A DNA stretch of 64,000 nucleotides from Bdellovibrionales bacterium (lineage in GTDB: Bacteria > Bdellovibrionota > Bdellovibrionia > Bdellovibrionales > UBA1609): positions 10,771-74,770 of the forward strand of contig JALZUR010000005.1 of NCBI GenBank assembly GCA_023301025.1. The letters are read 5' to 3'. The stretch's first letter is position 1, and the number at the start of each line of letters is the position of its first letter. The notes under the pieces were generated by a model, which was not told the origin of the DNA, made no database searches, and was given only the letters and a program-made list of their open reading frames with translations. This document shows positions 12,813-37,528 of the stretch, one piece after another. The position numbers and the translations under genes are program-made.

Positions 12813-12830
12813 AAGCAAGGGGCATGCCAA
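12813..12830 (-). promoter_or_regulatory. Sigma54 -24/-12 promoter for the 12790 lipoprotein gene
   Basis: Minus strand reads TTGGCATGCCCCTTGCTT = GG-N10-GC; predicted +1 near 12803, just upstream of the SD. Confidence 0.75.
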
Positions 12831-12960
12831 AAAAATAGTTTAATAAATTTTCTAATAGACTCTATAAAAGCAAAAATATGAACTACAACCAGCTGTATTG
12901 TGTTGTTTTAACAATTTTCGCTAAACCTGTGACAAAAACTGTCACCTCTGATTAAAGAAA

Positions 12961-12990
12961 AAAAAACCTGAGTCATTGTCTCAGGTTTTT
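12961..12990. terminator. Intrinsic terminator, symmetric (bidirectional-type)
   Basis: AAAAAACCTGAG-tcattgt-CTCAGGTTTTT, about 75 bp downstream of the 13065 stop. Confidence 0.75.
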
Positions 12991-13064
12991 AGTTAACGGT
13001 GCTTTATGATTTAAAAGCTTATAGATATAGGTGGGTGTAATTTGAAATTTGAATTGTTTAAAGC

Positions 13065-13478
13065 TTATTTAATGCTTTTTTTAACTTCATTATCTGTCTT
13101 CTTAACCTCTTCTGTCTTGGAATTTCCTAAAACAGCAGATGTAGCTTCAGTTAAATCGGCTACTAGTTTTTGGTACAAAGAACTTGTTATAAAGCCTTCA
13201 GAAAATGCAGCACATTTTATAGCTACATTGTCTTTCTTTTGAGTTTCAGTTAATTTTAGTTCTCCAGTTTCAGCGTAACCTTCAAAAGTTTTTGCAGTTT
13301 TGTAAGAAATTTCATAATTTTCAGTGTCAGATAAAGCAAACTCTATATAAGGCAAAATATTAAAGTGTGACTTACACGCTTCAATTCTTTTTTTCTGTAG
13401 TTCATTAAAATTAGTCGCATCAGCATTTGCAACTGAACTGAGTGATAGTAGAGTTATTAATAGTAAATTTATTTTCAT
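13065..13478 (-). CDS. Small secreted hypothetical protein
   Basis: Signal peptide ending SVANA, two Cys, SD AAGGCGG. Confidence 0.75.
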   Translation of the reverse strand: MKINLLLITLLSLSSVANADATNFNELQKKRIEACKSHFNILPYIEFALSDTENYEISYKTAKTFEGYAETGELKLTETQKKDNVAIKCAAFSEGFITSSLYQKLVADLTEATSAVLGNSKTEEVKKTDNEVKKSIK

Positions 13479-13533
13479 AATTCTTTTCCGCCTTAAAATT
13501 TAAGAATCAGTTCTAACTGATACTTAAGAGATA

Positions 13534-13551
13534 AAGCAAAAAATATGCCAA
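13534..13551 (-). promoter_or_regulatory. Sigma54 -24/-12 promoter for the 13478 gene
   Basis: Minus strand reads TTGGCATATTTTTTGCTT = GG-N10-GC. Confidence 0.75.
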
Positions 13552-13554
13552 AAA

Positions 13555-14589
13555 TTAGTGTTTTACAGTTAAGACAAGTTTACCTGTTGTTTGACGACTC
13601 TGTATGAGTCTATGTGCTTCTCCGACATTTTCAAAATCAACTTCTGTTACAGGAATAGGTTTAATTTTACCTTCTAAAAGTAGTGAGTTTAGTCCATCAA
13701 TACATTCTTTTATAAGATCTTTTTCATCTAAGAGGTAGCTGATGTTAAAGCCTACAACACCTTTATTAGTGGTTATAAAGTCCATTGGGTTAAACTTTGG
13801 AGTTTTAAAAAGTCCTAAAGCTGCTTTGAAGTAATTTAAGTTTCCTTTTTCTGATATAAAATCATGAGCACCGTAAACGATGAGTTTTCCGGTTGAACAT
13901 AGATGCTTGTAAGATTCAGACACTGTTTTATATCCATTAGCATCAAAGATGGCGTTATAGCCCTTTGGCGAAAACTCCTTAGCTTTTATCCATAGATCTT
14001 GTGTAGATTTGTCAATAATCTCATCAGGTGAAAACTGCTCAAGGTACTTTCTTTTATGACTAGAGCCTATAACACCAACTGTGTAAAAGCCTTTAGCTTT
14101 ACAAAGTTGAACAAGAGCAGAGCCCACGCCACCTGCGGCAGAATGAATTAGGACTCGAGATGATTTTGGTAAAAATACATGATGGTTTAGCGCATGAAAA
14201 GCTGTAAAAAAAACTGCTGCAAAGCCTGAAGCTTCGTTAATACTAAAGCCTTCAGGAATGGGCATGACTTGATCTTCAGGTACACAAACTTGTGTGGCGT
14301 AGGCGTTAAACCTAGTAAATGCTAAAACCTTTTGTCCAACTTTAAAGTTTTTAGTGCCTCCTCCAACTTTAATAACTTCACCTGAAACTTCAAAGCCAGG
14401 TGTTATAGGCCAACCAACGTATTTTTTAGCGCTTGAGTAAACACCAAGTCGTACACAAACGTCAGCAAAATTTACTCCAATAGCTTTAACTTTTATTAAA
14501 ACCTCTTGTTCAGATGGTTTAAGGTCAGGGAAGTCTTTAATTATCAATTTGTCAAAAGAGCCAGGCCCTTCAACTACAACTTTTTGCAT
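13555..14589 (-). CDS. MDR-family NAD(P)H:quinone oxidoreductase (VAT-1/zeta-crystallin-like)
   Basis: GVNFAD, TPGFEVSG, VLIHSAAGGVG, STGKLIVYG, TTGKLVL; no Zn-binding Cys cluster. Confidence 0.85.
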   Translation of the reverse strand: MQKVVVEGPGSFDKLIIKDFPDLKPSEQEVLIKVKAIGVNFADVCVRLGVYSSAKKYVGWPITPGFEVSGEVIKVGGGTKNFKVGQKVLAFTRFNAYATQVCVPEDQVMPIPEGFSINEASGFAAVFFTAFHALNHHVFLPKSSRVLIHSAAGGVGSALVQLCKAKGFYTVGVIGSSHKRKYLEQFSPDEIIDKSTQDLWIKAKEFSPKGYNAIFDANGYKTVSESYKHLCSTGKLIVYGAHDFISEKGNLNYFKAALGLFKTPKFNPMDFITTNKGVVGFNISYLLDEKDLIKECIDGLNSLLLEGKIKPIPVTEVDFENVGEAHRLIQSRQTTGKLVLTVKH

Positions 14590-14606
14590 TGCTCAATCCT
14601 TTTAAG

Positions 14607-17105
14607 CTATTGTTTTTGTAATGATTCAACAATACTGGCACAGCCGCCACAGCCAGATCCTGCTTTTTCAGATCCACTTGTTTCATTAAGGATCTGGCCC
14701 TTAGTGACTGACATGCATCTACAAATAATTTCATCAGCATCGACAACTTTTTCGGTTGTGTATTTAATATTTGATGTTTCTGTATCATCTACAGCTTGAA
14801 AGTGTTCTACAACAATTTGACTTCTATCTACTCCAAGTTTTTTTAAGTCTTCAGTTATAGATGATATCATCTTAGGTGGTGCTACTAAATAATAAACAGT
14901 ATCAGCTTTAGAGCTTTCAACAAGTCTTTCTAGATCTGAAAAACTAAGTCTATTTGATTTACTAAGATTTTTTTTGTTAGTGGTGTAGAACTCAACACTA
15001 AAAAAATCACTAAATTCTGAATGGATGTTTAGAAATTCGTCATAAAATAGAGGGCTTCCAGAAGTGCTTGATACTAGGTGTATAGGCCTTTTAAAAATTT
15101 TACTATCTGCATATTTTTGAATTACGCTTCTAATGGGTGTTATACCTACACCTCCAGCAATCATTACTGCAGGCTTATTGGCTCTAAAATTAAGACCAGC
15201 CGTCCCAGTTAATCTTTTCACTGAAATTGAAAAATCTGTACGATTCATAGAACTTAAGTAGTTTTTAAAAGCACTGTCAGATCTTCTATACACAAATTCT
15301 AAAAGTTGTGAATTAGGTCTGTTGGCTAAAGAAAACACGCGTGTTGCATTTTCAGGACTAAGCTCAGTATCTTGAAGTGTTAAAGATAGGGCATCTCCTG
15401 CCTCTAATGGGAAAAGATCTGGTCGCTCTAAAGTTAGTTTTATATATTCTGTGTTTTCTAAAGTTTCAATTGAATGAACCTTCATTAAAGCTTCAGTTTC
15501 TTTTGGTACTATATTAAATCCTTCTAAAGGACTTATAAAAAAGACTTTAAGAGACTCATTTCTAACTATGCTGTTGTTCATGATTTGATAGTCACGAAGA
15601 TTTTCTTTTAAAGATTTTTTTACTAAAACTAGATCTTTTTTATCAACTGCAAAACCAAAATTTGCATGAAGATCCACAACAGTAAGACCTTTTATGTCAG
15701 ATAAGATCTTATCACTTTCGGGTGTATCATAGGTTTCTGCACCTTTAAATAGATTATATTTTTTACGAATCAAGGTGTATAAAAATTTGTGATGTTTCAC
15801 TTCAAAGTCTTCTAACTCGAAGGCTTTATCTCTGTCTTTTTTAGTCCAATCACCTATGTTTTTACGAACACCTTCTCTTTCTTGAATAAGTTCAAACATG
15901 GCTTGTTTGTCGAAACCTTTAAAAGCAGGAGCTTCGTCTACATCTTGAAGAGCAATTTCAGTTTCATAAATTTTCCTTAAAGATTTTAGTGGAACACTTT
16001 TTAGATAGTCTCTAATGAGAATCTCATACTGCACATGAATGTAGGTGAACTCTAAAAAAGTTAAAACAAAAGAATCAGGTTTTGAATTTGAGCTTGTACT
16101 TTTATCTCCAATTTCTTCTTTCAGTTTTTGCAGCATGACCTTTAAACGGTGATTGTAGTTGTCACCTTTTAAGTATTTATATAGACCACCGAATATTGCC
16201 TGATGTTTTATCTCATCTTTGATGAGTTCTAACACCCAACGTTGAGCACTGCCTTTGGAGTGTATGAAGAGCCAAATATAGGCCGATGCTGCATGCCACT
16301 CTGTATCGCTTCTAGATATTAAATGAAAGTATGCATCTTTCATACTAAAGGGATCTAAACCTTCATAGGCTGTAAAATCTTCCTCTCTTGTATCAACTTG
16401 GCCATTTGGATCAATTCTATTTGCAAGTTTTTGTAATACGCCTTCATGACGTGCCTCTTCGTCACACCACGGGTTAGAACAGTATTCAGGTGTTGGAACC
16501 TCATCTATTAGTTCTTCAATCTCTTTTCTAGAAAAGCCATCTAAACTTTCACCTCTATCCATAATTTTTTGTATGGACTGGGTAAAAGTTTTCCCCATAA
16601 ATCTTGCAGCTTGAGGAGATAGGGCTTGAAGAGTGTGACCGCTATTATCAGAGTATGCTTTTATTGGGGCCTCAATTGCTTCAGCTAACCGAGCAACCTT
16701 AGCCCAGTCTTTAGGGCTAACTGCAACAATGTCATCGCTTGTTACAGATTCAAAATCACTTTTTTCTTCATCCCAACTTCTTAGAGACGATTCACTTAAT
16801 CCAAAACGTAAATGACCTAAAAGATCAAAAACATGTTTATCTAAATTTGAAGGTGTAATTAAATCGTTTAACTGTGAGCTTGCAATAGCAAGGGAGTGTC
16901 TAAGATTTTTAAGTTGTGATCTTTTGTTTTGTTTACTCTCAGTAAGAGGTTTAGCTTTACTTTCTGCTACTAATGAGACGGTATTTTTTGATCTTGCAAC
17001 AGTTTGAGACAGATACTCATTACATGTATTTGCGTATAAATTTTTAGTGGTAAACAGTAAACTTAAAAGGATTATTTTTTTTAAATAAGATTTATCAGTT
17101 AGCAT
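14607..17105 (-). CDS. Fusion of a ferritin-like diiron domain, an FNR-type FAD/NAD(P)H reductase and a BFD-like [2Fe-2S] domain, with an N-terminal signal-like peptide
   Basis: IEAPIKAY, WCDEEARH, TEWHAASAY, KDEIKH (diiron ligand pattern); RVFSL, IAGGVGITP, VEHF (FNR family); CRC...CGGC (BFD). Confidence 0.75.
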   Translation of the reverse strand: MLTDKSYLKKIILLSLLFTTKNLYANTCNEYLSQTVARSKNTVSLVAESKAKPLTESKQNKRSQLKNLRHSLAIASSQLNDLITPSNLDKHVFDLLGHLRFGLSESSLRSWDEEKSDFESVTSDDIVAVSPKDWAKVARLAEAIEAPIKAYSDNSGHTLQALSPQAARFMGKTFTQSIQKIMDRGESLDGFSRKEIEELIDEVPTPEYCSNPWCDEEARHEGVLQKLANRIDPNGQVDTREEDFTAYEGLDPFSMKDAYFHLISRSDTEWHAASAYIWLFIHSKGSAQRWVLELIKDEIKHQAIFGGLYKYLKGDNYNHRLKVMLQKLKEEIGDKSTSSNSKPDSFVLTFLEFTYIHVQYEILIRDYLKSVPLKSLRKIYETEIALQDVDEAPAFKGFDKQAMFELIQEREGVRKNIGDWTKKDRDKAFELEDFEVKHHKFLYTLIRKKYNLFKGAETYDTPESDKILSDIKGLTVVDLHANFGFAVDKKDLVLVKKSLKENLRDYQIMNNSIVRNESLKVFFISPLEGFNIVPKETEALMKVHSIETLENTEYIKLTLERPDLFPLEAGDALSLTLQDTELSPENATRVFSLANRPNSQLLEFVYRRSDSAFKNYLSSMNRTDFSISVKRLTGTAGLNFRANKPAVMIAGGVGITPIRSVIQKYADSKIFKRPIHLVSSTSGSPLFYDEFLNIHSEFSDFFSVEFYTTNKKNLSKSNRLSFSDLERLVESSKADTVYYLVAPPKMISSITEDLKKLGVDRSQIVVEHFQAVDDTETSNIKYTTEKVVDADEIICRCMSVTKGQILNETSGSEKAGSGCGGCASIVESLQKQ

Positions 17106-17311
17106 TCGTAGTGTCCCCCCGGATTAGAGCAAATTCTGATAGTTATTAAGTCTTGTCAAATAGCTTAGACTTAAGCTCAAAACAGCTTAGTTTTTTAGAT
17201 AAAAGCTATAAAGATTCTGAAAAATGATTGTTAAACAAGCTACAACTGTCATCTTTTTTGACAGTAAAGGCTTAAATCTTAGTCTCTTCTGCATGTCTAT
17301 GGTATTTGGTT

Positions 17312-17327
17312 TGGCAAGCTTTTTGTA
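17312..17327 (+). promoter_or_regulatory. Possible sigma54 promoter (GT variant at -12) for the 17339 lipoprotein gene
   Basis: TGGCAAGCTTTTTGTA = GG-N10-GT; one mismatch to consensus at -12. Confidence 0.45.
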
Positions 17328-17338
17328 TTGTATAGGAT

Positions 17339-18298
17339 ATGAAAAACCTAATTTTAACTGCCATTATTGTGCCTACGTTACTTATTCTTTCGGCCTGTTC
17401 TGATATTCAAGATCATAATCTTGTAGATAACAGTTCTGAGGTAGAGTTTTACGATCTTACTGGTGTCTATAGAACTGTGATTGAGCAAAATGCAGTAGTT
17501 CCTTCTGTGACTTCCATCCAGATCAACACTGGAATTAGTACAAATGATGCAAGTCTTCAGATGTTTAGAAATGGTTTAGGTTACAATGAGGTGCAGTTTT
17601 TTTCAGATCTTGATTTATTAGATTCGGCTGACTCAACATTTGGAAGAGAACTTAGCTTTACAGAACTCAGAGATGGTGAAATTAGTAAGAACAGTGTAAA
17701 CTCTGAAGGTGTTTCAGAGCTTGATCTTTGTACGACAAGTAAATCATTAAATGACCTGTTACTAGAGTTTTATCACTGTATAGAGATCACTAAAGAATTA
17801 GACAGTGACATTTTAGACGGTAGATTGATGCTTCATATTTTAGATCAAGGTGTAGAACTTGCTCCTGTTGAAATTGAATACTCTTTATTTGAAAAAGATA
17901 GGCTTTCTGTTGATTACTTTGGAAATTGGAGTGGTGAAGTTACAAAGCAGAGTAATTACTTTTATGATTTAGAGCTTTTCTCAGGTAATGATTTTTTAAT
18001 CACTTTTCAACCTGTAAATGTAGCAGATTATATTTTAAGACCCTATGATGTGAATCATACTGTTAAAATAGCAGATGAAACCTTTGTTTTTGAGCCTGTA
18101 AATCGTCCTTTATCTGAGCTTGAGCAAAATGCTAACCCCTTTGTAAACTTTGATTTTGTCTCAGAACAAGACGGCTCAAGGCGTATAAGATTTAATAGCA
18201 GTGTTGTAAGACTTGGTAGAATTGAGGGGAATATTCAATTAATTTTACCAAATGGAAGTACAGAGCTTTTGGCTACCTATTGGTTAGAAAAAAACTAG
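17339..18298 (+). CDS. Orphan lipoprotein, acidic and beta-rich
   Basis: Lipobox ILSAC; 319 aa. Confidence 0.8.
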   Translation: MKNLILTAIIVPTLLILSACSDIQDHNLVDNSSEVEFYDLTGVYRTVIEQNAVVPSVTSIQINTGISTNDASLQMFRNGLGYNEVQFFSDLDLLDSADSTFGRELSFTELRDGEISKNSVNSEGVSELDLCTTSKSLNDLLLEFYHCIEITKELDSDILDGRLMLHILDQGVELAPVEIEYSLFEKDRLSVDYFGNWSGEVTKQSNYFYDLELFSGNDFLITFQPVNVADYILRPYDVNHTVKIADETFVFEPVNRPLSELEQNANPFVNFDFVSEQDGSRRIRFNSSVVRLGRIEGNIQLILPNGSTELLATYWLEKN

Positions 18299-18334
18299 AT
18301 TTAATTAAATAAATCACCGATAATTACAATAGTA

Positions 18335-18577
18335 ATGAAGAAAAAAATGCCACTATTAATCTTTTGTTTAGTGACCCTTAGCTGTGGGCTAGTGTTTTCT
18401 ATGATAAGCTCTACGCAGTCTTCACAGGATAAGGTCCTAGAGAGCAGAATAGAAGTTATCAAATCAAAGTTGGGTAGAGCAAAAGCTCTTAAGAAGAAGG
18501 CTTTGATGAAAGAACTGGCAGAGCTTGAAAATAAGCTTACAGAAAGTTCTAGCGCAGATCGTAAAGATTCAAAGTAA
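18335..18577 (+). CDS. Small membrane-anchored or secreted hypothetical protein
   Basis: Hydrophobic N-terminus followed by a short coiled coil; fits the intergenic gap. Confidence 0.6.
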   Translation: MKKKMPLLIFCLVTLSCGLVFSMISSTQSSQDKVLESRIEVIKSKLGRAKALKKKALMKELAELENKLTESSSADRKDSK

Positions 18578-18595
18578 GTTATAAAGTCTTATAGG

Positions 18596-23139: not shown

Positions 23140-23257
23140 TTGTGCGTCTAGTTTTTGCTATATGTAAGATATAGGTCCTTGCGTCCAGACTTAATTACTG
23201 TGTAAAATTTTAGTAAGCCCAAAGGTTGGGACTTTAGAAAATATAAGGAGAGCAAGG

Positions 23258-23629
23258 ATGCTTAGAGAAGTTTTAATTAAAGAGGGTTTGTCAAATCGTG
23301 AGGCTGAAGTTGCTGAGTTAGTAACTCAAGGTCTTTCTAATAAAGAAGTTGCATCAAGACTTTTTGTAACTGAAAAAACTGTAAAATTTCACCTTACTAA
23401 CATTTATAAAAAAATGAATGTAAAATCTAGAGCCCAGCTTATCGTATGGTGTCTGCCAAACATGACATTCATAGAAAGAGGCGGAGATAAAAGAAACACA
23501 GATAATACTAATGGTTTTTCTAATGGAATTCCTACAGGTCACTCTCCAGTTTCTTCACAGAACACAGAAGCAAACACTGCAGAGACTCAAACAATTCTTC
23601 CAGGTTCTTACAATAAAGTTAAGTTCTAG
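23258..23629 (+). CDS. Stand-alone LuxR-type HTH transcriptional regulator
   Basis: LSNREAEVAELVTQGLSNKEVASRLFVTEKTVKFHLTNIYKKM; SD AAGGAG. Confidence 0.9.
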   Translation: MLREVLIKEGLSNREAEVAELVTQGLSNKEVASRLFVTEKTVKFHLTNIYKKMNVKSRAQLIVWCLPNMTFIERGGDKRNTDNTNGFSNGIPTGHSPVSSQNTEANTAETQTILPGSYNKVKF

Positions 23630-24251: not shown

Positions 24252-24289
24252 GTATATGACATTCTTATGTCAAAAAGGAGGTGGTGCCC

Positions 24290-26840: not shown

Positions 26841-26952
26841 GTGAGAACCTTTCTTATATAGCTCTCTTTTTACCGATTCATTTTAAGACAAACATCTAAT
26901 AATTTGTTACAAAAAGAGGCATAAAAATCACTTAGTCCAGTTATGGACGAGC

Positions 26953-26973
26953 TGTGACAAATTTGTGACAAAT
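26953..26973. promoter_or_regulatory. Tandem direct repeat with 11-bp period (OmpR/PhoB-type operator candidate)
   Basis: TGTGACAAAT-T-TGTGACAAAT, 28 bp upstream of the hemA start. Confidence 0.6.
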
Positions 26974-27001
26974 GAGAACTAATAGATATTAGTATAATTA
27001 T

Positions 27002-27889
27002 ATGATTTCTTTAGTTATATTAAACCTTTGCAACTCGTCATCTGATGATTCTACGGGAGTTGAACCTTTCTTAGAAAAGGGCTTAGAGCTAAAAACATGT
27101 CTAAGAAGAATGATTATAGTTGATCAAAGAGACTTTAACTTACTGAATGTTGGATCATCTGTGAAAGTATATCGTGGTTATGATGCCTTAAATTACGCTA
27201 TTAAAGTTATGTCGGGTTTAGAGTCACCTGTTTTAGGGGAGACTGAAATTTTTGGCCAGTTTAAAAAACAGGTTCTTCCGCAGCTAAATAAAGCTCATAA
27301 TAAAAAGTTTAATAAGCCTATTCAGTTTATTATTTCAATGGTTAAGCAAATAAGATCAAAACACTTTGTTGGACAAGGTGCTCAAACATACGGCGGGCTT
27401 GTTAGAAAGATCTTGAAATCAGAAGACAACGTTCTCTTTATTGGTGCTGGTAGTTTTGCTGAGTCTATATATCCTTGGGTAAAACCTCATAAAAATATTT
27501 TCTTTTCTGTGCGTACTCCTGAAAAGTACGGCGATCATGAGGTGTTTAAAGATGATGTTTTTTTTGATATAAATAAAGCCTTAACAACTCAAAACCCAAT
27601 AAGTTTGATTGTATGTGCTCCAATTTCTGCTGAGTTAATAGCAAATCATTTAAAAGGCACAAGCGTTACAACAATTATTGACTTAAGAGACAGCTCTGAT
27701 TCTGATCCTCTAGTGATTGAATCTGCACAAATTTACACCTTAGGTGAAGTCTTTAAAAAGATTTCCGATAATTTAGACAAAAAAATTGAAATCAAACGCA
27801 ATGTTGAACTTGATATTAAAGACCGTCTTAACAAAAAGCTTGAAAAATCTCGTCCTATCAGTTGGGATGAGACATGCACATTAAACTAG
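27002..27889 (+). CDS. hemA: Glutamyl-tRNA reductase (short form)
   Basis: KTCLR (catalytic Cys), SGLESPVLGETEIFGQFK, FIGAGS; first gene of the haem operon. Confidence 0.75.
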   Translation: MISLVILNLCNSSSDDSTGVEPFLEKGLELKTCLRRMIIVDQRDFNLLNVGSSVKVYRGYDALNYAIKVMSGLESPVLGETEIFGQFKKQVLPQLNKAHNKKFNKPIQFIISMVKQIRSKHFVGQGAQTYGGLVRKILKSEDNVLFIGAGSFAESIYPWVKPHKNIFFSVRTPEKYGDHEVFKDDVFFDINKALTTQNPISLIVCAPISAELIANHLKGTSVTTIIDLRDSSDSDPLVIESAQIYTLGEVFKKISDNLDKKIEIKRNVELDIKDRLNKKLEKSRPISWDETCTLN

Positions 27890-29430: not shown

Positions 29431-29436
29431 TTAAAT

Positions 29437-30723: not shown

Positions 30724-30736
30724 GGTTTTTTTAAGT

Positions 30737-31657
30737 ATGAAGCTTTTCGTTCATTTTTTAAAAAAGTATATATCAGGTCTTTTGGTGGGCTTATGGGCAG
30801 TCTTTACGTTAGCTCTTTTGATTTGGTGGGTTGTTTTCAGTTTAAAACAGTTTGAAAGTATTAAAACTCTATCTCTTCAAGAAAACACACTGATTTTAAA
30901 AAACCAAACTATGTTGATTTATGAAGGCATCACACTTTTTATATGTATGCTCATGGGGTCAACGGCTTTGATTTATTTTGTCTACCGTGAAAACTTAAGA
31001 TTAAAAGAAAGAAAAGATTTTTTATCAGTCTTCACCCATGATTTAAAAACAACACTCACTTCTTTAAGCCTTAGGTTTCAACGCATAACAAATCAAGATA
31101 AACCTGAGAAAATAAAATCTGATGTTAAAGAGATGCAAAAGATTGGCTTGCGTTTAAATCAGCAGCTTCAAAATGCTTTGCAATTTTCTTATTTTGAATT
31201 CAATAAAGCTTTTATTGAAACTATGAATTTAAATAAAGAGCTTAAATTTATTTGTCTTTTGTGGCCAGACTTAGAAGTTGATATAGATAAAGAGCCGATG
31301 TGGATCAAAGCTGATGCTTCACTTGTTCGGGGAGTGGTGAGCAACCTTATTCAAAATGCCTATGATCACTCTAATTCAAGGAATCTTAAAATTTTTGTAA
31401 AATTTAAAAAATCGAACAGTAAAAATTTAGAAGTTGTTTTTGAACCCCTTGATGGTGACCCTTACAAAGGAAGGTTAAATCTTTTTAAAGCTGATTATAA
31501 TTATGAAAAAGCAAAGGACAGCTCTGGTTTGGGACTTCATCTGTCTAAAAAAATTATGAAAAAATTTGGCGGTTATTTAGACTTTTCACTAAATCAGAAA
31601 AATTTCTTAGTGTCTCATTTGGTCTTTATTAAAAGTACTGATTTTGGTGAGGTATAG
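30737..31657 (+). CDS. Membrane sensor histidine kinase
   Basis: Two TM helices, H-box THDLKT, N-box NLIQNA, G2 SSGLGL. Confidence 0.85.
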   Translation: MKLFVHFLKKYISGLLVGLWAVFTLALLIWWVVFSLKQFESIKTLSLQENTLILKNQTMLIYEGITLFICMLMGSTALIYFVYRENLRLKERKDFLSVFTHDLKTTLTSLSLRFQRITNQDKPEKIKSDVKEMQKIGLRLNQQLQNALQFSYFEFNKAFIETMNLNKELKFICLLWPDLEVDIDKEPMWIKADASLVRGVVSNLIQNAYDHSNSRNLKIFVKFKKSNSKNLEVVFEPLDGDPYKGRLNLFKADYNYEKAKDSSGLGLHLSKKIMKKFGGYLDFSLNQKNFLVSHLVFIKSTDFGEV

Positions 31658-31660
31658 AAT

Positions 31661-32362
31661 ATGAAAGGGCTCTATGTTGAAGATGATCTTGAGCTTTCTA
31701 AAGTTGTTATAGAAAGTTTAGAAGAAAGAGGTGTTTCTGTTAAATGGACACGTTCTGTTAAAGACTCTATTGAAGCTTTAAAAAATGAAACATTTAGTTT
31801 CTATATTCTCGACCTTGGGCTCATCGACGGCGAAGGTTTTTCAGTCGCTGACTTTATAAAACAAAATAATCTTAGAGGTCCGCTTATTTTTTTAACAGCA
31901 CGCTCGGAGGCAAAAGATAGGCTTAAAGGTTATGAATTTGGTGCTTGTGAGTACATACCAAAGCCTTTTTTGTTTGAAGAGCTTTGGATAAGACTTGATC
32001 ACGCTTTGAGTGAGCACGGAGAACCTGATGTCTTTAGACTAGCGAAAGATCTTGTTTTTGATTTTAAAGCCCAACAGCTTAATTTTGAAGAGACTACAGA
32101 CAAAAACTCGGACTTTTTTGGAGCTGTTAAATTGAGTTTAAAAGAATCTTTGTTTTTAAAACAAATTATTGAAGAAAGTCCCAAAGCTGTGAGACGATCA
32201 GAAGTGTTAGATAAAGTTTGGGGAAATGGAAAGTATCCGACAGAAAGAACTGTTGATAATTTAGTTTTGAAACTTAGACAAAAGTTAGGCGCTTCAGGTT
32301 CTAGAGTTGAATCTATAAGGGGTGTTGGTTACAAATGGAGCGAGGATAAATATGAACACTAA
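31661..32362 (+). CDS. OmpR-family response regulator
   Basis: VEDD, ILDLGL, FLTA, KPF receiver motifs; winged helix VDNLVLKLRQKL...SIRGVGY. Confidence 0.92.
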   Translation: MKGLYVEDDLELSKVVIESLEERGVSVKWTRSVKDSIEALKNETFSFYILDLGLIDGEGFSVADFIKQNNLRGPLIFLTARSEAKDRLKGYEFGACEYIPKPFLFEELWIRLDHALSEHGEPDVFRLAKDLVFDFKAQQLNFEETTDKNSDFFGAVKLSLKESLFLKQIIEESPKAVRRSEVLDKVWGNGKYPTERTVDNLVLKLRQKLGASGSRVESIRGVGYKWSEDKYEH

Positions 32363-33383
32363 ATTTCAAAATGCATTAAACTTAGAAGAACAAAGAGTTC
32401 CTCCTATTTGGATGATGAGACAGGCGGGGCGTTACCAAAAAACTTACAGAGCTCTAAGAGAAAAACACAGTTTTGAGAGACTTTGCAAAGAGCCAGAACT
32501 TTCTGCAAAAGTGGGTTTAAATGCTATTTTAGAGTTTGATTTTGATCTATGTATTTTATTTTCTGATATTCTATTTCCACTTGAAGCTCTAGGTATGGGT
32601 CTGTCTTATGATCCAGCGCCAAACCTTTCGTGGAAACTTGATACAAAAGATGATTTTAAAAAATTTAAGGATGCTGACGAGGCTCTAAATTTTATGAGTT
32701 TTCAATCTGATGCTTTGAAAGCCACAAGATCTGTTCTTCCAAAGGATAAAAGTCTTATTGGTTTTGTAGGTGGGTATTGGACGTTATTTGGATATGCTGT
32801 AGAAGGAAGTCACAAAGGAAGCATGTTAGAAACAAAAAAAAGAAGAGATCTTTTTTCTGATTTTACAAAAGACTATATGCATCCGTTAATTAAAAAAAAT
32901 ATTGAGCTTCAGCTTAATTCAGGTGCTGAACTCGTAATGGTCTTTGACACAGCCTTAGGTGAAGTAGATGTATCTTTTTATAGAAAAGAAATATTTCCTT
33001 TTATTAAAGACCTGGCAAAAAGTTTTCCTAATAAACTTGGGTACTACACAAAGGGAACAACGAGTGATTATTTTTTTGATGATTTCTATGAATTACCTTT
33101 TTTAGGTATGGGTTGGGATCACAGGTGGGATCTTACGAAAGTTTTAAAACAAAAAAAATATAAAGGATTTGTACAAGGAAACTTTGACCAAGCGTTGCTC
33201 CATCAAAAGCCCGCTGATTTTAAATTGAGTCTTGAAAACTATTTAGATCAGTTTAAAGATTTAAGTTCAGAGCATTTAAAAGGTTTAGTTCTTGGTCTTG
33301 GTCATGGTGTTCTTCCAAAGACTCCTGAAGACAATGTAAAAGCTTTTATGGACATTGCTAGAGACAGTTTTGACAAGAGATAA
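32322..33383 (+). CDS. hemE: Uroporphyrinogen decarboxylase (start probably the ATG at 32352)
   Basis: PIWMMRQAGRY, ILFSDIL, LIGFVGG, LGLGHGVLPKTP. Confidence 0.95.
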   Translation: MLVTNGARINMNTKFQNALNLEEQRVPPIWMMRQAGRYQKTYRALREKHSFERLCKEPELSAKVGLNAILEFDFDLCILFSDILFPLEALGMGLSYDPAPNLSWKLDTKDDFKKFKDADEALNFMSFQSDALKATRSVLPKDKSLIGFVGGYWTLFGYAVEGSHKGSMLETKKRRDLFSDFTKDYMHPLIKKNIELQLNSGAELVMVFDTALGEVDVSFYRKEIFPFIKDLAKSFPNKLGYYTKGTTSDYFFDDFYELPFLGMGWDHRWDLTKVLKQKKYKGFVQGNFDQALLHQKPADFKLSLENYLDQFKDLSSEHLKGLVLGLGHGVLPKTPEDNVKAFMDIARDSFDKR

Positions 33384-34563
33384 AACTGAAGTCTTTGTTT
33401 ACGGCGCTGGTGTTAGTGGACTTATTGCGGCTTATTATTTAAATAAAAAAAAATTAAAGGTTTCAATTGTAGATCCTTTTAATGAGCCTGTTTTACAAAC
33501 ACATATAAAGAAAGAAGGTCTAATTGAGTGGGCTGCAAACTCGCTTTTAATGAACCTTGAATCAAAAGAACTCTTAGATAATATTGGTTTAGAGTATATC
33601 AATTACAGTGAAGCTGGCAAAAAAAAGTTCTTTTATAGAAGTGGTGAACTTTGTAGATGGCCTTTAAACTTTATTGAGAGTTTACAGTTAATTCCCTTTT
33701 TCTTTAAAATTTTATTTTTTAAAAAATATTTAAAGCCTAAACAGAATGTAACTTTAAAAAACTGGTCTTTAAAACATCTGCCAGAAGCTTTTTATGAAAG
33801 AGTTTTCAAAAGAGGACTTCAAGGCGTTTACGGACCTAATATAGATAAACTTTCATCCAATTTAGTTTTAAAACCTTTTTTAGATCAAAGAAAATCAAAA
33901 TCTTTAGGGAGTGTTAGTTTTAAAAGTGGTATGCAAGAACTTCCAAAAAAACTTAAAGACTACTTAACCAAAAATGGTGTTATTTTTTTAAAACAAGAAC
34001 CTGTAGGAAAAAAAGCTATTAGAGTTGTTTCTACTCCGGCACATTCTTTGCCCTCTTGTGTAGACAATAAAGCAAAAGAGATTTTAGAAAAAGTTATGTA
34101 TCATAATATTTCAATTGTTACCTTTTTTGTTAATGAAGATTCTAAAATGCCTTTCTCTGGTTTTGGTGCTGTTTTTGAAGATGAGCCAGGTGTTTTAGGT
34201 TTGATTTTAAATTCTGAGCTTTTTGAAAACAGAGCAAGTGAAGGCTTATCATCTGAGACCTGGATTGTTGATGGAACCATTTTAAAAGATGAATCTAATG
34301 CGATAGACTCAATTCAGGCCTTAAGACATAAAATGATTGGAAAAGAGTCAGATGTTACTGCACATTATTATAAAAATTGGGAGAGAGCTTTTCCGGTTTA
34401 TGACATTAAACTTGAAAATGCTTTAAAAGAATTAGAAGTTTCCAAAGATCTTTTTTATTTTGCTAACTGGACAGGTTCTTTAGGTATTGGAAAACTTATA
34501 GCCAAAGGCAAAAGCTTTTCAGAAGAGGTTTGTCGATCAAATAATATTAGCGTAAATGAGTAA
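33355..34563 (+). CDS. hemY: HemY-type FAD-dependent (proto/copro)porphyrinogen oxidase
   Basis: GAGVSGL dinucleotide motif, FKSGMQELP, FSGFG, LGLILNSELFENRA, WERAFPVY; position in the haem operon. Confidence 0.8.
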   Translation: MLETVLTRDKTEVFVYGAGVSGLIAAYYLNKKKLKVSIVDPFNEPVLQTHIKKEGLIEWAANSLLMNLESKELLDNIGLEYINYSEAGKKKFFYRSGELCRWPLNFIESLQLIPFFFKILFFKKYLKPKQNVTLKNWSLKHLPEAFYERVFKRGLQGVYGPNIDKLSSNLVLKPFLDQRKSKSLGSVSFKSGMQELPKKLKDYLTKNGVIFLKQEPVGKKAIRVVSTPAHSLPSCVDNKAKEILEKVMYHNISIVTFFVNEDSKMPFSGFGAVFEDEPGVLGLILNSELFENRASEGLSSETWIVDGTILKDESNAIDSIQALRHKMIGKESDVTAHYYKNWERAFPVYDIKLENALKELEVSKDLFYFANWTGSLGIGKLIAKGKSFSEEVCRSNNISVNE

Positions 34564-34612
34564 GTGCTTTACGTATTAGATCTAGATTTAAAAAAATTAA
34601 TTTAAAAAGTGA

Positions 34613-35629
34613 GTGTTAAAAGTGGCGAAAAAAGGTTTAGTTTTTATTAATATTGGAACACCTGAAGATTTAAGTGTAGAGGCTGTAAAAAAGTATTTAA
34701 AACTTTTTTTAATGGATAAGTACGTTATCGATCTTCCTTTTCCTATAAGATGGGTTTTAGTAAATATGATTATTGCACCATTTAGGGCAAAAAAAAGCTA
34801 TGAAGCCTATAAAGAGATTTGGTCTGATAAAGGGTCTCCTCTTGAAGTGTACACTAAAGAACTTGTAGAAGACGCCACAAAGTCTTTAAATGACAGTTGG
34901 CATGTTGAATATGCCATGAGTTATTCAAATCCTTTTATTAGTGATGTCTTAGATACTCTAAACAAAAAAGGTGTAGAAGAGATTTATATTCTTCCTATGT
35001 ATCCCCAGTATGCCGAATCAACCTCAAGAAGTACTATCGAAGCTGCCTTAGAGTGGGGTGAAAAACATTCATCTGTTAAGATCAAAACCTTAGAATACTT
35101 TTTTGATCATATATCTTTTGTAAAATCCTCTAAAGATAAAATTAGTCAGCAAATTCAGACTTTAGATGATGATACGCACTATTTGTTTAGCTATCATGGT
35201 CTTCCTTTTAGGCATGTAAAAAAACTTCACCCTAAACATTGTAAGAATGATAAGTCTTGTTGTAGCACACTTGATGAAAAAAATGAGTTTTGTTACAGGG
35301 CTCAATGCCACCACACCACAGAAATCTTAGCTAAAGAGCTTGGTTTAAAAGACTATTCGTATTCATTTCAAAGTAGACTTGGAAAAGACCAGTGGCTGCT
35401 CCCTTATACAGTTAATCACGTTGCAGAGCTTGCAAAGTCTAATAAAAAGAAGATTGCTGTTCTTCCATATGCATTTACAATAGACTGTTTAGAAACAGAA
35501 GAAGAGATAGAGGCCGAAGTTCAAGAAGCTTTTAAAGAAGCCGGAGGAGAGCACTTTCATAGAGTCGAGTGTTTAAATAGGGATTTTTCAAAAGTTTTAG
35601 ATGATAAGTTTTTCGAATCATTTTCTTAA
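34613..35629 (+). CDS. hemH: Ferrochelatase
   Basis: INIGTP, GSPL, PMYPQYAEST, FSYHGLP, FQSRLG, WLLPYT, DCLETEEEI. Confidence 0.95.
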   Translation: MLKVAKKGLVFINIGTPEDLSVEAVKKYLKLFLMDKYVIDLPFPIRWVLVNMIIAPFRAKKSYEAYKEIWSDKGSPLEVYTKELVEDATKSLNDSWHVEYAMSYSNPFISDVLDTLNKKGVEEIYILPMYPQYAESTSRSTIEAALEWGEKHSSVKIKTLEYFFDHISFVKSSKDKISQQIQTLDDDTHYLFSYHGLPFRHVKKLHPKHCKNDKSCCSTLDEKNEFCYRAQCHHTTEILAKELGLKDYSYSFQSRLGKDQWLLPYTVNHVAELAKSNKKKIAVLPYAFTIDCLETEEEIEAEVQEAFKEAGGEHFHRVECLNRDFSKVLDDKFFESFS

Positions 35630-35731
35630 AAAACTATATTAGTAATGTGACATTTTTTGTTTACAATTTATAGAATCGTTTAATAGTTCTACATTATAGC
35701 TGTCTGAGTTAGAAAAAATAACATTTCATAG

Positions 35732-35747
35732 TGGTAAGGTTTTTGCT
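35732..35747 (+). promoter_or_regulatory. Sigma54 -24/-12 promoter for the 35762 gene
   Basis: TGGTAAGGTTTTTGCT = GG-N10-GC. Confidence 0.65.
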
Positions 35748-35761
35748 TCATAACAAATGTT

Positions 35762-37420
35762 ATGAAAAGTTTAAATTTAAAAATCTTAGTTCTCAATTTT
35801 TTGATACTCTCATTTATTGGGCAGTTAGCTTCTGCTAATCTCTGTGTGGATATACTGTCTAAAAAGAGTGATAAGGCTATCGATACATTAATGTCTACAG
35901 ACCCTGAGATTTTTACAGATTCGAGAGTTATTTCAAAAACTGCTGCACAAAGAGATCTAGATCTTTTAAATGCTGAAGCTGAAATTTATGATGAATTGCT
36001 TGCTAAAGGGCAAATAAGAGAAAAAAATAGAGACAGTAAGCTTTATGACTCTTTAATTGTTCCAGTGATTTCAGAACAAGTGTTTTACTTTTACTTAGAA
36101 CTTATGCTTGTAAAGAAAGGTTATTCTAATGATGAGATAAAACTCTTAGAGTCGGATTTTCACAATTTACATTTTCAAAAGCAGTTGGAGTTTGTTCATG
36201 AGCTTGTAGATTATATGGCGTATAACTTGCCAACATATACAGACGTTAGTGATTTAGCAAAATTCAAAGAAGCGGCTGAAGTTTTACAGATTTCAACAGA
36301 CGCTTTGGGTAATTTCATAAGTAAGTGGAATCTTATGGTTTTAGCTGAGCCCAGCTCTTTGTACTGGCTTGTAGATAGTGTACTTTATGAAAGATCAAAA
36401 AGTACATCTACACATAGAGCTGATGGTTCTCTTATGAATAAAGCTCTTAGTTTTTTTAAAGATAAGTTTTCAAAGTCTAAAGAAAGTGTTGATATGATTT
36501 CAGTTGAACCTCCAGAGGTCTCTAAAGAGATTAGTCTTCGTAATCTTATAAATGGAAAGTCAATATTTTATAGTGATCATAGTAAATACTTTGAAATATT
36601 TATTAGATTTACTGAAAAGTTAACACCTGTTGGATTGTTTTATTTTATAAAGAAATATATGAAATTTTTTAATTTCACAGAAAGTAAATTTTTAATGGAA
36701 ACACTTGAGAGGTTAGAGCTTTTAGAAAGTCTTGATAAAGAAACTTACGAATACTTCACAAAACGTCATAATTTACTAATAAAGCTTTATCAACTTCCAG
36801 AAAACAACAACAAAGTCACTCAAACCACTATTGATAATTTGGATCAAAAGATAAGAAGACTAGAAAATAAAAAAACTAACCAGAATTACAATACTGAAAT
36901 GAATAAAGACGAATTTTCACGTATATTACTTTTAGTAGAAGAACTAAAAGAGTCTAGAACTCACGATGAAGTAAAAATAGACTTAGATCAGATCTTTAAA
37001 CTAATGAATTCTTCAGCGTCACCTAAGCAGGCATATACTGTTTTTGAAAAGATTGTTGTAAATTTAGATAAATTTAAAGGTAAAAAACCTGTGCTAAAAC
37101 ACTATTTGAAGTTATTAAAACATCAAAAAAAGCACCCTCTAACAAAAACACTTTTGAATAAGTTGATTGGTCAAATTACATCAATCACTTCTTCTTGGGG
37201 AGACAGTAGTAATTTTGACGATAAGTATAAACTGCTAGACACCTCAAAATGGACTGTTGGTAGTTCTGTAGCAGAAATTGATTTAGAGCTTCAAGCTGAA
37301 ATCGATGCTTCAAAAGAAAAGAGAAAGGCTTATTTAAGTGATTTTGATAGCATAATTAAATCAAATGAAGACTTAGGTAAGACACGTGAGAGTATAATTC
37401 AAAAGCTTATCAATTTATAA
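35762..37420 (+). CDS. Secreted helical orphan protein
   Basis: Signal peptide ending LASA followed by NLCVDIL; 552 aa; no recognised domain. Confidence 0.8.
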   Translation: MKSLNLKILVLNFLILSFIGQLASANLCVDILSKKSDKAIDTLMSTDPEIFTDSRVISKTAAQRDLDLLNAEAEIYDELLAKGQIREKNRDSKLYDSLIVPVISEQVFYFYLELMLVKKGYSNDEIKLLESDFHNLHFQKQLEFVHELVDYMAYNLPTYTDVSDLAKFKEAAEVLQISTDALGNFISKWNLMVLAEPSSLYWLVDSVLYERSKSTSTHRADGSLMNKALSFFKDKFSKSKESVDMISVEPPEVSKEISLRNLINGKSIFYSDHSKYFEIFIRFTEKLTPVGLFYFIKKYMKFFNFTESKFLMETLERLELLESLDKETYEYFTKRHNLLIKLYQLPENNNKVTQTTIDNLDQKIRRLENKKTNQNYNTEMNKDEFSRILLLVEELKESRTHDEVKIDLDQIFKLMNSSASPKQAYTVFEKIVVNLDKFKGKKPVLKHYLKLLKHQKKHPLTKTLLNKLIGQITSITSSWGDSSNFDDKYKLLDTSKWTVGSSVAEIDLELQAEIDASKEKRKAYLSDFDSIIKSNEDLGKTRESIIQKLINL

Positions 37421-37512
37421 TTAAACTCTTTGTATCACTTTGAGACTGTTGCTTAAATGTTATTAAGGTGTAAAGAAAATTATCACTCAAATCAAACCTC
37501 ATAGGTTTAGTT

Positions 37513-37528
37513 TGGTCCCTTATTTGCA
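37513..37528 (+). promoter_or_regulatory. Sigma54 -24/-12 promoter for the 37541 lipoprotein gene
   Basis: TGGTCCCTTATTTGCA = GG-N10-GC. Confidence 0.65.

What the first reader, a model, noticed from the sequence alone, without database searches (positions are those of the whole stretch)
12813..37528. Sigma54 promoters mark orphan secreted and lipoprotein genes
Seen: exact GG-N10-GC elements immediately upstream of four orphan exported genes (12813-12830 minus, 13534-13551 minus, 35732-35747, 37513-37528) and a GG-N10-GT variant at 17312-17327. I noticed no comparable element before the housekeeping genes. Established: this is the RpoN consensus. Inference: these unrelated orphans form one stage-specific RpoN regulon, possibly of predation effectors.
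Basis: partly seen in the sequence, partly recalled or inferred. Interest (0 to 1): 0.62.

Follow-up and report, generated by a model that had tools for sequence, protein, structure and literature searches.

The report
Sigma-54 promoters drive exported orphan proteins
In this small Bdellovibrio-related genome the alternative sigma factor RpoN (sigma-54) has about 30 promoters, and nearly all of them, including the five in this window, sit in front of unrelated exported proteins of unknown function, so sigma-54 here looks like a tight on/off switch for the cell's secreted and surface proteins.

Summary
Two of them (12814-12829 and 13535-13550, minus strand) match TGGCAY-N5-TTGCW perfectly. The other three match 9 of 11 core positions, which by count alone is near chance. 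Conservation in front of orthologous genes rescues them, so I judge all five real.

- **Genome-wide:** perfect-core sites number 18. Sixteen lie upstream of a gene and point towards it (13 seen in strictly intergenic upstream DNA, 0.1 expected).
- **Machinery:** the genome has a complete rpoN and seven intact enhancer-binding activators.
- **Targets:** 22 of 26 strong-site targets have a signal peptide or lipobox, against 24% of all genes (p = 8e-11). 17 of 22 have no Pfam hit. They are mutually unrelated.
- **Relatives:** the same bias holds in seven related genomes from five families of the order.
- **New here:** a candidate enhancer, GTGACA-N5-TGTCAC, lies 56-108 nt upstream of about ten promoters (site 1, probably site 4). 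A class of promoters has the ATG exactly at the predicted start, suggesting leaderless mRNA (site 3, probably site 4).

The "RpoN promoters before exported orphans" reading is supported. "One stage-specific regulon" and "predation effectors" are not shown: there are seven activators and at least two enhancer classes. No transcription data could be obtained. Earlier notes of this scan report sigma-54 promoters before exported proteins in other phyla too.

The parts
12814..12829 (-). Site 1: sigma-54 promoter TGGCATGCCCCTTGCT (11/11 core). GG at 12828-12827, GC at 12816-12815, predicted +1 about 12803, directly before SD GAGG (12802-12799) and ATG 12790.
12929..12945 (.). Candidate enhancer (UAS): perfect 17-bp palindrome GTGACAGTTTTTGTCAC. 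Its centre is 108 nt upstream of the TGG of site 1.
   Evidence: A related dyad is kept upstream of a 42%-identical homologue.
12962..12990 (-). Intrinsic terminator after the 137-aa gene. It separates the two transcription units, so the 208-aa gene needs its own promoter.
12164..12790 (-). Target of site 1: 208-aa Cys/Asn-rich lipoprotein (MKKIILALLSLVILNAC...). No family hit. No homologue in 12 relatives. Two homologues besides itself among 5.8 billion proteins.
13535..13550 (-). Site 2: sigma-54 promoter TGGCATATTTTTTGCT (11/11 core). Predicted +1 about 13524, giving a 46-nt leader with a 5' hairpin. The motif starts 4 nt after the stop of the upstream zinc-type dehydrogenase gene.
13065..13478 (-). 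Target of site 2: 137-aa secreted protein (signal peptide ...SSVANA|DA). No family hit. Distant homologues in two relatives.
17312..17327 (+). Site 3: variant sigma-54 promoter TGGCAAGCTTTTTGTA (-12 GT). Predicted +1 at 17338, one nt before ATG 17339, which places it in the leaderless class (d = 12).
17245..17265 (.). Palindrome ACTGTCA-TCTTTTT-TGACAGT, 57 nt upstream of site 3. It uses the same half-sites as the UAS in the opposite order and is the only intergenic instance in the genome.
17339..18298 (+). Target of site 3: 319-aa lipoprotein (…LLILSAC). No family hit. Orthologues in three genomes of the same genus.
35732..35747 (+). Site 4: sigma-54 promoter TGGTAAGGTTTTTGCT (9/11). Predicted +1 about 35758, ATG at 35762, no SD (near-leaderless, d = 15).
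35647..35663 (.). UAS-like dyad GTGACATTTTTTGTTTA (9/12), centred 77 nt upstream of site 4. The left half and the T-tract are conserved in the BBAY81 relative.
35762..37420 (+). Target of site 4: 552-aa secreted protein (signal peptide …GQLASA|N). A true orphan: no homologue in 12 relatives, and only one other species among 5.8 billion proteins.
37513..37528 (+). Site 5: sigma-54 promoter TGGTCCCTTATTTGCA (9/11). Predicted +1 about 37539, then SD GGGGGA (37543-37548) and the likely true ATG at 37553.
37553..38314 (+). Target of site 5: lipoprotein of about 253 aa (MKKLILTIALPLFLVAC...). It belongs to a small lineage-restricted family (22 cluster representatives among 1.84 billion).

Best explanation
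The five elements are genuine sigma-54 (RpoN) -24/-12 promoters.

**Mechanism (inferred from the textbook system).** RNA polymerase carrying sigma-54 binds them as a closed complex. That complex stays silent until an enhancer-binding AAA+ activator, bound further upstream, hydrolyses ATP and opens the DNA. Each gene is therefore fully off until its activator is switched on.

**Regulon content.** In this genome, and across the order, sigma-54 promoters are used mainly for fast-evolving exported proteins: lipoproteins, secreted proteins and secreted proteases.

**Enhancer.** One activator circuit is marked by a 17-bp palindromic enhancer, GTGACA-N5-TGTCAC. It lies 56-108 nt upstream of about ten promoters, including site 1 and probably site 4. 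The other promoters must use other activators.

**Leaderless class.** Part of the set, including site 3 and probably site 4, has the ATG at the predicted start site. These would be translated as leaderless mRNA.

**Shown:** motif quality, position, enrichment, conservation, presence of the machinery, and the link to exported targets.

**Inferred:** actual RpoN dependence, start sites, which activator binds the palindrome, and what the proteins do.
For: **Machinery**
- rpoN has its activator-interacting, core-binding and DNA-binding domains and a canonical RpoN box.
- Seven activators have an intact G(A/S)F(T/S)GA loop. The six that were domain-scanned also have a C-terminal HTH_8. Three carry a receiver domain, one an FHA domain, one a PocR-like domain, and one has no sensor.

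**Motif statistics**
- TGGCAY-N5-TTGCW occurs 18 times. Sixteen are upstream of and co-oriented with a gene.
- In upstream regions: 13 observed against 0.10 expected for 11/11, and 9 against 0.93 for 10/11.
- In all 12 relatives the motif far exceeds its reversed control, for example 20:0 and 37:2.

**Targets**
- 22/26 strong-site targets are exported, against 438/1831 genome-wide (p = 7.9e-11).
- 17/22 lack any Pfam hit, against 7/20 random exported controls (p = 0.0066).
- In relatives, 67/98 ORFs downstream of a site look exported, against 57/167 other ORFs in the same loci (p = 6e-8).

**Conservation**
- Sites 3 and 5 are kept before orthologues of 29-39% identity.
- Sites 4 and 5 are kept in a syntenic metagenome contig. 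There site 5 reads TGGCCC, closer to the consensus.
- A 42%-identical homologue of the site 1 target keeps TGGCACAGTAATTGCC together with a TGACAATTTTTGTAAC dyad.

**Enhancer**
- Matches of at least 10/12 to the palindrome: 13 of 50 are intergenic (p = 4e-4).
- 7 of those 13 have a sigma-54-like promoter 56-108 nt away, against 2/37 of the coding hits (p = 5e-4).
- 8/26 strong promoters have a match of at least 9/12 upstream, against 92/1780 controls (p = 4.6e-5).
- Spacing is phased at about 10.5 bp (R = 0.68, p = 0.007, n = 10).

**Geometry**
- The distance from motif end to ATG is bimodal: 12-15 nt or at least 21 nt, with none at 16-20.
- No sigma-70-like promoter was found in the gap before the site 1 gene, which follows a terminator.
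Against: - There are no transcript data.
- Sites 3-5 are only 9/11 matches, and that class is not enriched by count. Site 4 rests on one close relative whose intergenic DNA is still alignable.
- No enhancer was found for site 2 or site 5 in this genome.
- Genome-wide counts of the palindrome do not exceed its reversed control here (7 against 8). Its support comes from position and pairing only.
- Gene calls and signal-peptide calls are my own heuristics, and some calls are false positives.
- The phasing test has n = 10 and was scanned over several periods.
Confidence: 0.8

Rival explanations
1. All of the genome's sigma-54 promoters, the five here included, form one co-regulated, stage-specific regulon of predation effectors. 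A single activator switches it on. In its sharpest form the activator is the sensor-less one at C10:46332-47396, which also activates its own gene and so acts as a commitment switch.
For: - The lineage falls among Bdellovibrionales.
- Targets include secreted M10 and S8 proteases and many exported orphans.
- The sensor-less activator has a 10/12 palindrome (TTTACAAAAAATGTCAC) 156 nt upstream of a 9/11 sigma-54-like site before its own gene.
- Sites 1 and 4 carry the same kind of palindrome.
Against: - There are seven intact activators with four kinds of input domain.
- Only 8/26 strong promoters carry the palindrome. Sites 2 and 5 lack it here.
- The activator's own sigma-54-like site overlaps the arm of a terminator-like palindrome and may be coincidental.
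- There is no evidence on lifestyle or timing.
- k-mer and dyad searches found no element shared by all promoters.
Confidence: 0.2
2. Only sites 1 and 2 are real. Sites 3, 4 and 5 are chance GG-N10-G(C/T) matches in AT-rich intergenic DNA, and those genes are transcribed from sigma-70-type promoters.
For: - The 9/11 class is not significantly enriched in upstream regions: 10 against 6.2 (sd 2.5), and the GT variant 4 against 1.6.
- Fifteen 9/11 matches lie inside coding sequence in this window alone.
Against: - The motifs are kept, at the same position, before orthologues whose proteins are only 29-39% identical and whose flanking DNA has diverged.
- Chance gives a match of this quality in roughly 0.7% of upstream regions.
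- The TGGTAA variant of site 4 recurs in the conserved site-5-type promoters of two relatives.
- A GT variant with a 10/11 core is paired with an 11/12 palindrome at C36:27269.
Confidence: 0.12
3. The link to exported proteins is an artefact. Genes for exported proteins have longer, more AT-rich upstream regions, or their starts are miscalled, so any motif scan would land there.
For: - Many strong promoters have long upstream gaps of 150-290 nt.
- My gene and signal-peptide calls are heuristic, and two of 20 'exported' controls were clearly cytoplasmic enzymes.
Against: - Chance gives 0.1-0.9 strong sites in all upstream DNA together, against 22 observed. Region length therefore cannot create them.
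- The motif is followed by an SD, an ATG and then the signal peptide, so it lies outside the coding sequence.
- The same bias appears against neighbouring ORFs of the same loci in other genomes.
- The classifier's errors dilute the contrast rather than create it.
Confidence: 0.03

Closest known systems
Canonical sigma-54 promoter plus NtrC-type enhancer (e.g. E. coli glnAp2 with its 17-bp NtrC dyads; PspF-pspA)
   Same: - -24 TGGCAC and -12 TTGCW with exact spacing.
- AAA+ activators with a GAFTGA loop and a Fis-type HTH.
- A 17-bp dyad enhancer of 6-N5-6 geometry upstream of the promoter, the same geometry as the NtrC site as I recall it (from memory, not tested).
- Spacing to the promoter that respects the helical repeat.
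   Different: - The enhancer sequence (GTGACA-N5-TGTCAC) is not that of any activator I know.
- The targets are exported orphans, not nitrogen, stress or flagellar genes.
- Several promoters of the palindrome subset tolerate T, G or A in place of the -12 C.
- A subset appears to give leaderless mRNA.
Sigma-54 as 'central controller of the bacterial exterior' (Francke et al. 2011, PMC3162934)
   Same: The general theme: sigma-54 regulons are biased towards the cell surface, including lipoproteins, flagella, EPS and LPS.
   Different: - That study concerns biosynthesis and transport pathways with known functions, and it does not mention Bdellovibrio.
- Here the targets are the exported proteins themselves. 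Most have no recognisable domain and no homologues outside the lineage.
- This genome has no flagellar rod genes at all.
Chlamydia trachomatis sigma-54 regulon (CtcB/CtcC; Soules et al. 2020, PMC7482065)
   Same: - A small genome in which sigma-54 drives a set of membrane and secreted proteins.
- Many of those proteins have unknown function and are tied to a life-cycle transition.
   Different: - Chlamydia has a single activator, which as I recall lacks a DNA-binding domain, and its secreted targets use type III secretion.
- Here there are seven activators; all six scanned have an HTH_8 domain.
- Here there is a palindromic enhancer, and the targets carry Sec or lipoprotein signals.
Borrelia burgdorferi Rrp2-RpoN-RpoS pathway controlling surface lipoproteins (PMC1976401, PMC6719511)
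   Same: Sigma-54 ultimately controls a large set of lineage-specific lipoproteins in response to a life-cycle signal.
   Different: - In Borrelia, as I recall, RpoN acts at essentially one promoter (rpoS) and RpoS transcribes the lipoprotein genes.
- Here each exported-protein gene has its own -24/-12 promoter.
Bdellovibrio bacteriovorus attack-phase promoters (FliA/sigma-28; Karunker et al. 2013, as cited in PMC11209729)
   Same: An alternative sigma factor is used for a large block of lifestyle-specific genes in a related organism.
   Different: - It is a different sigma factor.
- For B. bacteriovorus the papers searched only list an RpoN-like gene, bd0843. None describes its regulon.

Membership tests
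sigma-54 (RpoN) dependent -24/-12 promoter | GG and GC exactly 10 nt apart within TGGCAC-N5-TTGCW | tested here: met
   - Sites 1 and 2 match 11/11 core positions.
- Sites 4 and 5 match 9/11 with GG and GC intact.
- Site 3 matches 9/11 with GT at -12, and that GT is conserved in two orthologous promoters.
sigma-54 (RpoN) dependent -24/-12 promoter | The genome encodes RpoN with a DNA-binding domain and RpoN box | tested here: met
   The 500-aa protein at C16:7948-9450 has Sigma54_AID, CBD and DBD domains and ...ARRTVAKYR....
sigma-54 (RpoN) dependent -24/-12 promoter | The genome encodes enhancer-binding AAA+ activators with a GAFTGA-type loop | tested here: met
   - Seven have an intact loop; six were domain-scanned and all six have HTH_8.
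- An eighth (C20:39662) has a degenerate loop.
sigma-54 (RpoN) dependent -24/-12 promoter | Motif occurs upstream of and co-oriented with genes far more often than chance | tested here: met
   - 16/18 perfect sites are upstream-sense.
- 13 against 0.10 and 9 against 0.93 expected in shuffles.
- The motif exceeds its reversed control in 12/12 relatives.
sigma-54 (RpoN) dependent -24/-12 promoter | Upstream activator-binding site (enhancer) | tested here: inconclusive
   - Met for site 1: a perfect palindrome 108 nt upstream.
- Probable for site 4 (9/12) and site 3 (a related palindrome).
- None found for sites 2 and 5.
- Binding itself is untested.
sigma-54 (RpoN) dependent -24/-12 promoter | Transcription starts about 12 nt downstream of the -12 GC and depends on RpoN and an activator | not testable with these tools
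No experiment was possible.
   - The palindrome is present upstream of 8/26 strong promoters.
- k-mer and dyad searches found no element common to all.
Chlamydia-type sigma-54 regulon (activator without DNA-binding domain) | The activator lacks an HTH and acts from solution | tested here: not met
   All six activators scanned carry HTH_8.
leaderless mRNA | Transcript 5' end coincides with the start codon, and there is no Shine-Dalgarno | tested here: inconclusive
   - The geometry fits. The ATG lies 12 nt after the motif at site 3 and at four strong promoters, and 15 nt after it at site 4.
- Across genomes the distance is bimodal, with an empty 16-20 nt zone.
- There are no 5'-end data.

The most novel reading that the evidence does not exclude
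In this non-flagellate Bdellovibrionales lineage, and to a lesser degree across the whole order, sigma-54 has been taken over as a dedicated 'secretome' sigma factor.

- About 30 promoters are almost all in front of fast-evolving, lineage-specific exported proteins.
- Part of them are transcribed as leaderless mRNAs.
- A core subset is driven through a new palindromic enhancer by a sensor-less activator that may feed back on its own gene. That would give an all-or-none switch tied to a life-cycle step such as attack on prey.
Probability: 0.3. Interest if true: 0.7.

Novelty: new member of a known kind. Interest (0 to 1): 0.55.

Why it matters
- **Gap in knowledge.** In the papers searched, Bdellovibrio and its relatives are known to carry rpoN, but no role has been described for it.
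- **A concrete regulon.** This analysis gives a testable one: about 30 promoters, a candidate enhancer and a short list of activators. It points at a set of exported proteins that sequence comparison cannot annotate.
- **A way to prioritise.** If these proteins are the tools the cell uses on its surroundings or its prey, the sigma-54 promoter is a cheap marker for picking them out of any genome of the order.
- **A rare combination.** The apparent leaderless class would also be an unusual pairing: a sigma-54 promoter with leaderless translation.

Tried and rejected
- **Shared upstream element.** k-mer enrichment and perfect-dyad searches found nothing common to all 26 strong promoters. [AT]AACAC looked enriched by eye but was not: 4/29 against 11% background.
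- **Palindrome counts.** Genome-wide counts against the reversed control are uninformative here and in most relatives, because coding hits dominate. They are clearly in excess only in G003 (17 against 4).
- **Structure of the site 5 target.** An AlphaFold2 run on a 4-sequence alignment gave pLDDT 54. The Foldseek PDB search gave no match below E = 0.07, only generic small beta-barrels. No function is assigned.
- **Activator autoregulation.** The sensor-less activator's own 9/11 site overlaps a terminator-like palindrome, so this is kept only as a lead.
- **L226.** The upstream region of this 972-nt contig with a partial homologue of the site 1 target has a 10/12 palindrome but only a 7/11 promoter match. 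The contig is too short to interpret.
- **Sigma-70 scan.** Around sites 1 and 2 it gave chance-level hits only: 7 against 5.8 expected.

Full report
**What is there**

The window is contig C5:10771-74770 of a genome of 2.03 Mb, 34.6% G+C and 97.5% completeness. Its MutS is closest, at 52% identity, to uncultured Bdellovibrionales.

| Site | Sequence | Position | Core match |
|---|---|---|---|
| 1 | TGGCATGCCCCTTGCT | 12829->12814, minus | 11/11 |
| 2 | TGGCATATTTTTTGCT | 13550->13535, minus | 11/11 |
| 3 | TGGCAAGCTTTTTGTA | 17312-17327 | 9/11 (GT at -12) |
| 4 | TGGTAAGGTTTTTGCT | 35732-35747 | 9/11 |
| 5 | TGGTCCCTTATTTGCA | 37513-37528 | 9/11 |

The core is TGGCAY-N5-TTGCW. Every downstream ORF begins with a signal peptide or a lipobox. 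None has a Pfam or NCBIfam hit.

**Is it more than chance?**

Bare GG-N10-GC occurs 5254 times in the genome and means nothing. The extended core is another matter.

- It occurs 18 times, and 16 of those lie upstream of a gene and point towards it, although only 9% of the genome is non-coding.
- In the 1240 upstream intergenic stretches, dinucleotide shuffles expect 0.10 perfect and 0.93 one-off matches. The observed numbers are 13 and 9.
- The 9/11 class, to which sites 3-5 belong, is not enriched by count: 10 against 6.2, and the GT variant 4 against 1.6. Those three sites need other evidence.

**Evidence for the weak sites**

Site 5. Its target has orthologues of 33-35% identity in three genomes of the same genus. 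All carry TGGTAAAGCTTTTGCA or TGGCAAGCCTCTTGCA at the same place before a GGGGGA Shine-Dalgarno, while the flanks have diverged.

Site 3. Its target has three orthologues. Two keep (T/A)GG(T/C)ATGCTTTTTGTA, including the unusual GT. The third has a canonical TGGAATAAGTCTTGCT.

Site 4. Its target is a true orphan, absent from 12 relatives. One other species among 5.8 billion proteins has it, at 75% identity. That syntenic contig keeps TGGTAAGTTTTTTGCT, while the neighbouring bases differ. On the same contig site 5 reads TGGCCC, closer to the consensus.

Chance gives a match of this quality in about 0.7% of upstream regions. I therefore take all five as real, with site 4 the least certain.

**The machinery is present**

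rpoN encodes all three sigma-54 domains and a canonical RpoN box. Seven activators have an intact G(A/S)F(T/S)GA loop. Six were domain-scanned, and all six have a Fis-type HTH:
- three with receiver domains,
- one with an FHA domain,
- one with a PocR-like domain,
- one with no sensor domain.

The seventh (C6:37750) was not scanned.

**The regulon**

I listed the gene behind every strong site, meaning 11/11 or 10/11.

- By a fixed heuristic, 22 of 26 are exported, against 438 of 1831 genes overall (p = 7.9e-11). By eye two more are exported.
- Of 22 scanned, 17 have no Pfam hit. The rest are an M10 metalloprotease lipoprotein, an S8 subtilase, a SurA/PpiD-like chaperone, a zinc-ribbon/TPR membrane protein and one sub-threshold DUF.
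- Of 20 random exported controls, 7 had no hit (p = 0.0066).
- The targets are unrelated to one another apart from one paralogue pair.
- Classical sigma-54 targets are missing. The genome has no flagellar rod domain at all.

**It is not peculiar to this genome**

In 12 relatives spanning five families, the motif exceeds its reversed control everywhere, for example 20:0, 37:2 and 22:2. I fetched 108 loci from these relatives, mostly from seven of them. ORFs downstream of a site look exported in 67 of 98 cases, against 57 of 167 other ORFs in the same loci (p = 6e-8). Some promoters are conserved with their genes, namely the M10 lipoprotein and the zinc-ribbon/TPR protein. Flagellate relatives also have the expected site before flgF/G.

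**An enhancer**

Upstream of site 1, just after the terminator of the preceding gene, lies a perfect palindrome, GTGACAGTTTTTGTCAC (12929-12945).

- Genome-wide, 50 sequences match GTGACA-N5-TGTCAC at 10/12 or better. Thirteen are intergenic (p = 4e-4).
- Seven of those 13 have a sigma-54-like promoter 56-108 nt away that points away from the palindrome, against 2 of the 37 coding hits (p = 5e-4).
- All the targets that could be read are again exported proteins.
- Several of these partner promoters have T, G or A at the -12 C position, which makes the GT of site 3 less odd.
- Matches of 9/12 or better occur upstream of 8 of 26 strong promoters, against 92 of 1780 controls (p = 4.6e-5).
- Site 4 has GTGACATTTTTTGTTTA, 77 nt upstream. 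Site 3 has a unique palindrome with the same half-sites in the reverse order.
- A 42%-identical homologue of the site 1 protein, in a distant metagenome contig, keeps both TGGCACAGTAATTGCC and a TGTCAC...TGACAATTTTTGTAAC element.
- Palindrome-promoter pairs also occur in two relatives.
- The spacings cluster at 65-69 nt, and the others differ by roughly whole helical turns (R = 0.68 at 10.5 bp, p = 0.007, n = 10).

This is what an enhancer for one activator looks like. Which activator binds it is unknown. The sensor-less one has a 10/12 copy upstream of its own gene, but the promoter-like site there overlaps a terminator-like palindrome.

**Leaderless class**

For exported targets in this genome and its relatives, the distance from motif end to ATG is either 12-15 nt (11 cases) or at least 21 nt. 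None falls at 16-20.

A distance of 12 puts the ATG at the predicted start site, with no room for a Shine-Dalgarno. Four strong promoters here and site 3 have exactly 12. Site 4 has 15 and no Shine-Dalgarno. Sites 1, 2 and 5 have normal leaders containing GAGG, AAGG or GGGGGA.

**What I conclude**

The five elements are sigma-54 promoters (confidence 0.8). They are part of a sigma-54 promoter set that, in this order of bacteria, is used mainly for lineage-specific exported proteins.

The reading 'one stage-specific regulon of predation effectors' goes beyond the evidence. With seven activators and at least two enhancer classes, there are several circuits. Nothing here speaks to timing or to predation.

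**What is known already**

- The idea that sigma-54 governs the cell exterior is established (PMC3162934).
- Chlamydia offers a close analogue (PMC7482065).
- For Bdellovibrio the papers searched only list the rpoN gene.
- Earlier notes of this scan report sigma-54 promoters before exported proteins in several other phyla.

I therefore file this as a new member of a known kind. The enhancer sequence, the leaderless class and the near-exclusive use for orphan exported proteins are its new points.

**Limits**

- Gene calls and signal-peptide calls are my own heuristics.
- The relatives are not independent of one another.
- The enhancer and phasing statistics rest on about ten sites.

Noticed in passing
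window 13500-13526 (minus strand): The predicted 46-nt leader of the site 2 transcript starts with a hairpin, UAAGUAUCAGUU-AGA-ACUGAUUCUUA (-7.9 kcal/mol, z = -2.0). As DNA the same sequence is a palindrome, so it could instead be a protein-binding site.
   Followed up: partly
window 53382-53397 (+): A sixth sigma-54-like site, TGGCTTTTCTGATGCT (9/11), lies 65 nt upstream of an 883-aa ORF. The product has an internal-start lipoprotein signal (...LFFLFLGC).
   Followed up: no
window 27863-27878 (+): TGGGATGAGACATGCA (9/11) overlaps the start codon of a 518-aa gene in the haem-gene stretch. It is the only 'housekeeping' hit in the window and is probably chance.
   Followed up: no
G000:C5:77482-77570 (about 2.7 kb beyond the window's end): A complete module on the same contig: palindrome CTGACAAAAAATGTCAC, then 65 nt, then TGGCTCATGTTTTGCA, then an ATG 12 nt later (leaderless geometry). 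The gene encodes a 399-aa lipoprotein.
   Followed up: partly
G000:C10:46121-46300, before the sensor-less activator gene C10:46332-47396: TTTACAAAAAATGTCAC (10/12 to the enhancer) lies 156 nt upstream of TGGTCTGAGATTTGCA (9/11). That site overlaps the outer arm of a strong terminator-like hairpin (GGGGGATAAAAAGC...GCTTTTATCCCCC T9). This could be autoregulation or coincidence.
   Followed up: partly
whole genome G000: No flagellar rod domain (PF00460) was found in a 97.5%-complete genome. Three relatives (G005, G009, G012) have perfect sigma-54 promoters before flgF/G. This lineage seems to have lost flagella but kept sigma-54.
   Followed up: partly
G000:C20:14114-14838: The palindrome-driven sigma-54 promoter at C20:14189 precedes an 81-aa secreted protein. 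An Flp-type pilin gene (…GQSLTEYLILVALVAV…) follows directly, so Tad/Flp pilus genes may be co-transcribed from it.
   Followed up: no
G000:C6:12444-13448 and C20:10979-11989: These are the only paralogous targets (34% identity, about 335 aa). Both lie behind near-identical promoters, AGGCACTCTT(C/T)TTGCTA. They have His and GVSGS/SVSGS motifs that recall chymotrypsin-fold serine proteases, but no Pfam hit.
   Followed up: no
L113-L115 (G001, G002, G004), upstream of the site 5 orthologues: In the relatives the gene is divergent from another exported-protein gene that has its own perfect sigma-54 promoter (e.g. TGGCATAAGCCTTGCT). Conserved blocks lie between the two, including GTGACAGTTTACGGCTGTAAAAACTTTTAACAC. 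This is a shared bidirectional enhancer region that the window's genome lacks.
   Followed up: partly
window 24257-24272: TGACATTCTTATGTCA lies in the gap between two convergent genes. It has the same half-sites as the enhancer but a 6-nt spacer, and no sigma-54-like site is nearby.
   Followed up: no
window 35675-35696 (alignment A1): Between the UAS-like dyad and site 4, a 15-nt block (AATAGTTCTACATTA) is perfectly conserved in the BBAY81 relative while its flanks vary. It could be a bending-protein or second regulator site, but it does not fit the IHF consensus.
   Followed up: no
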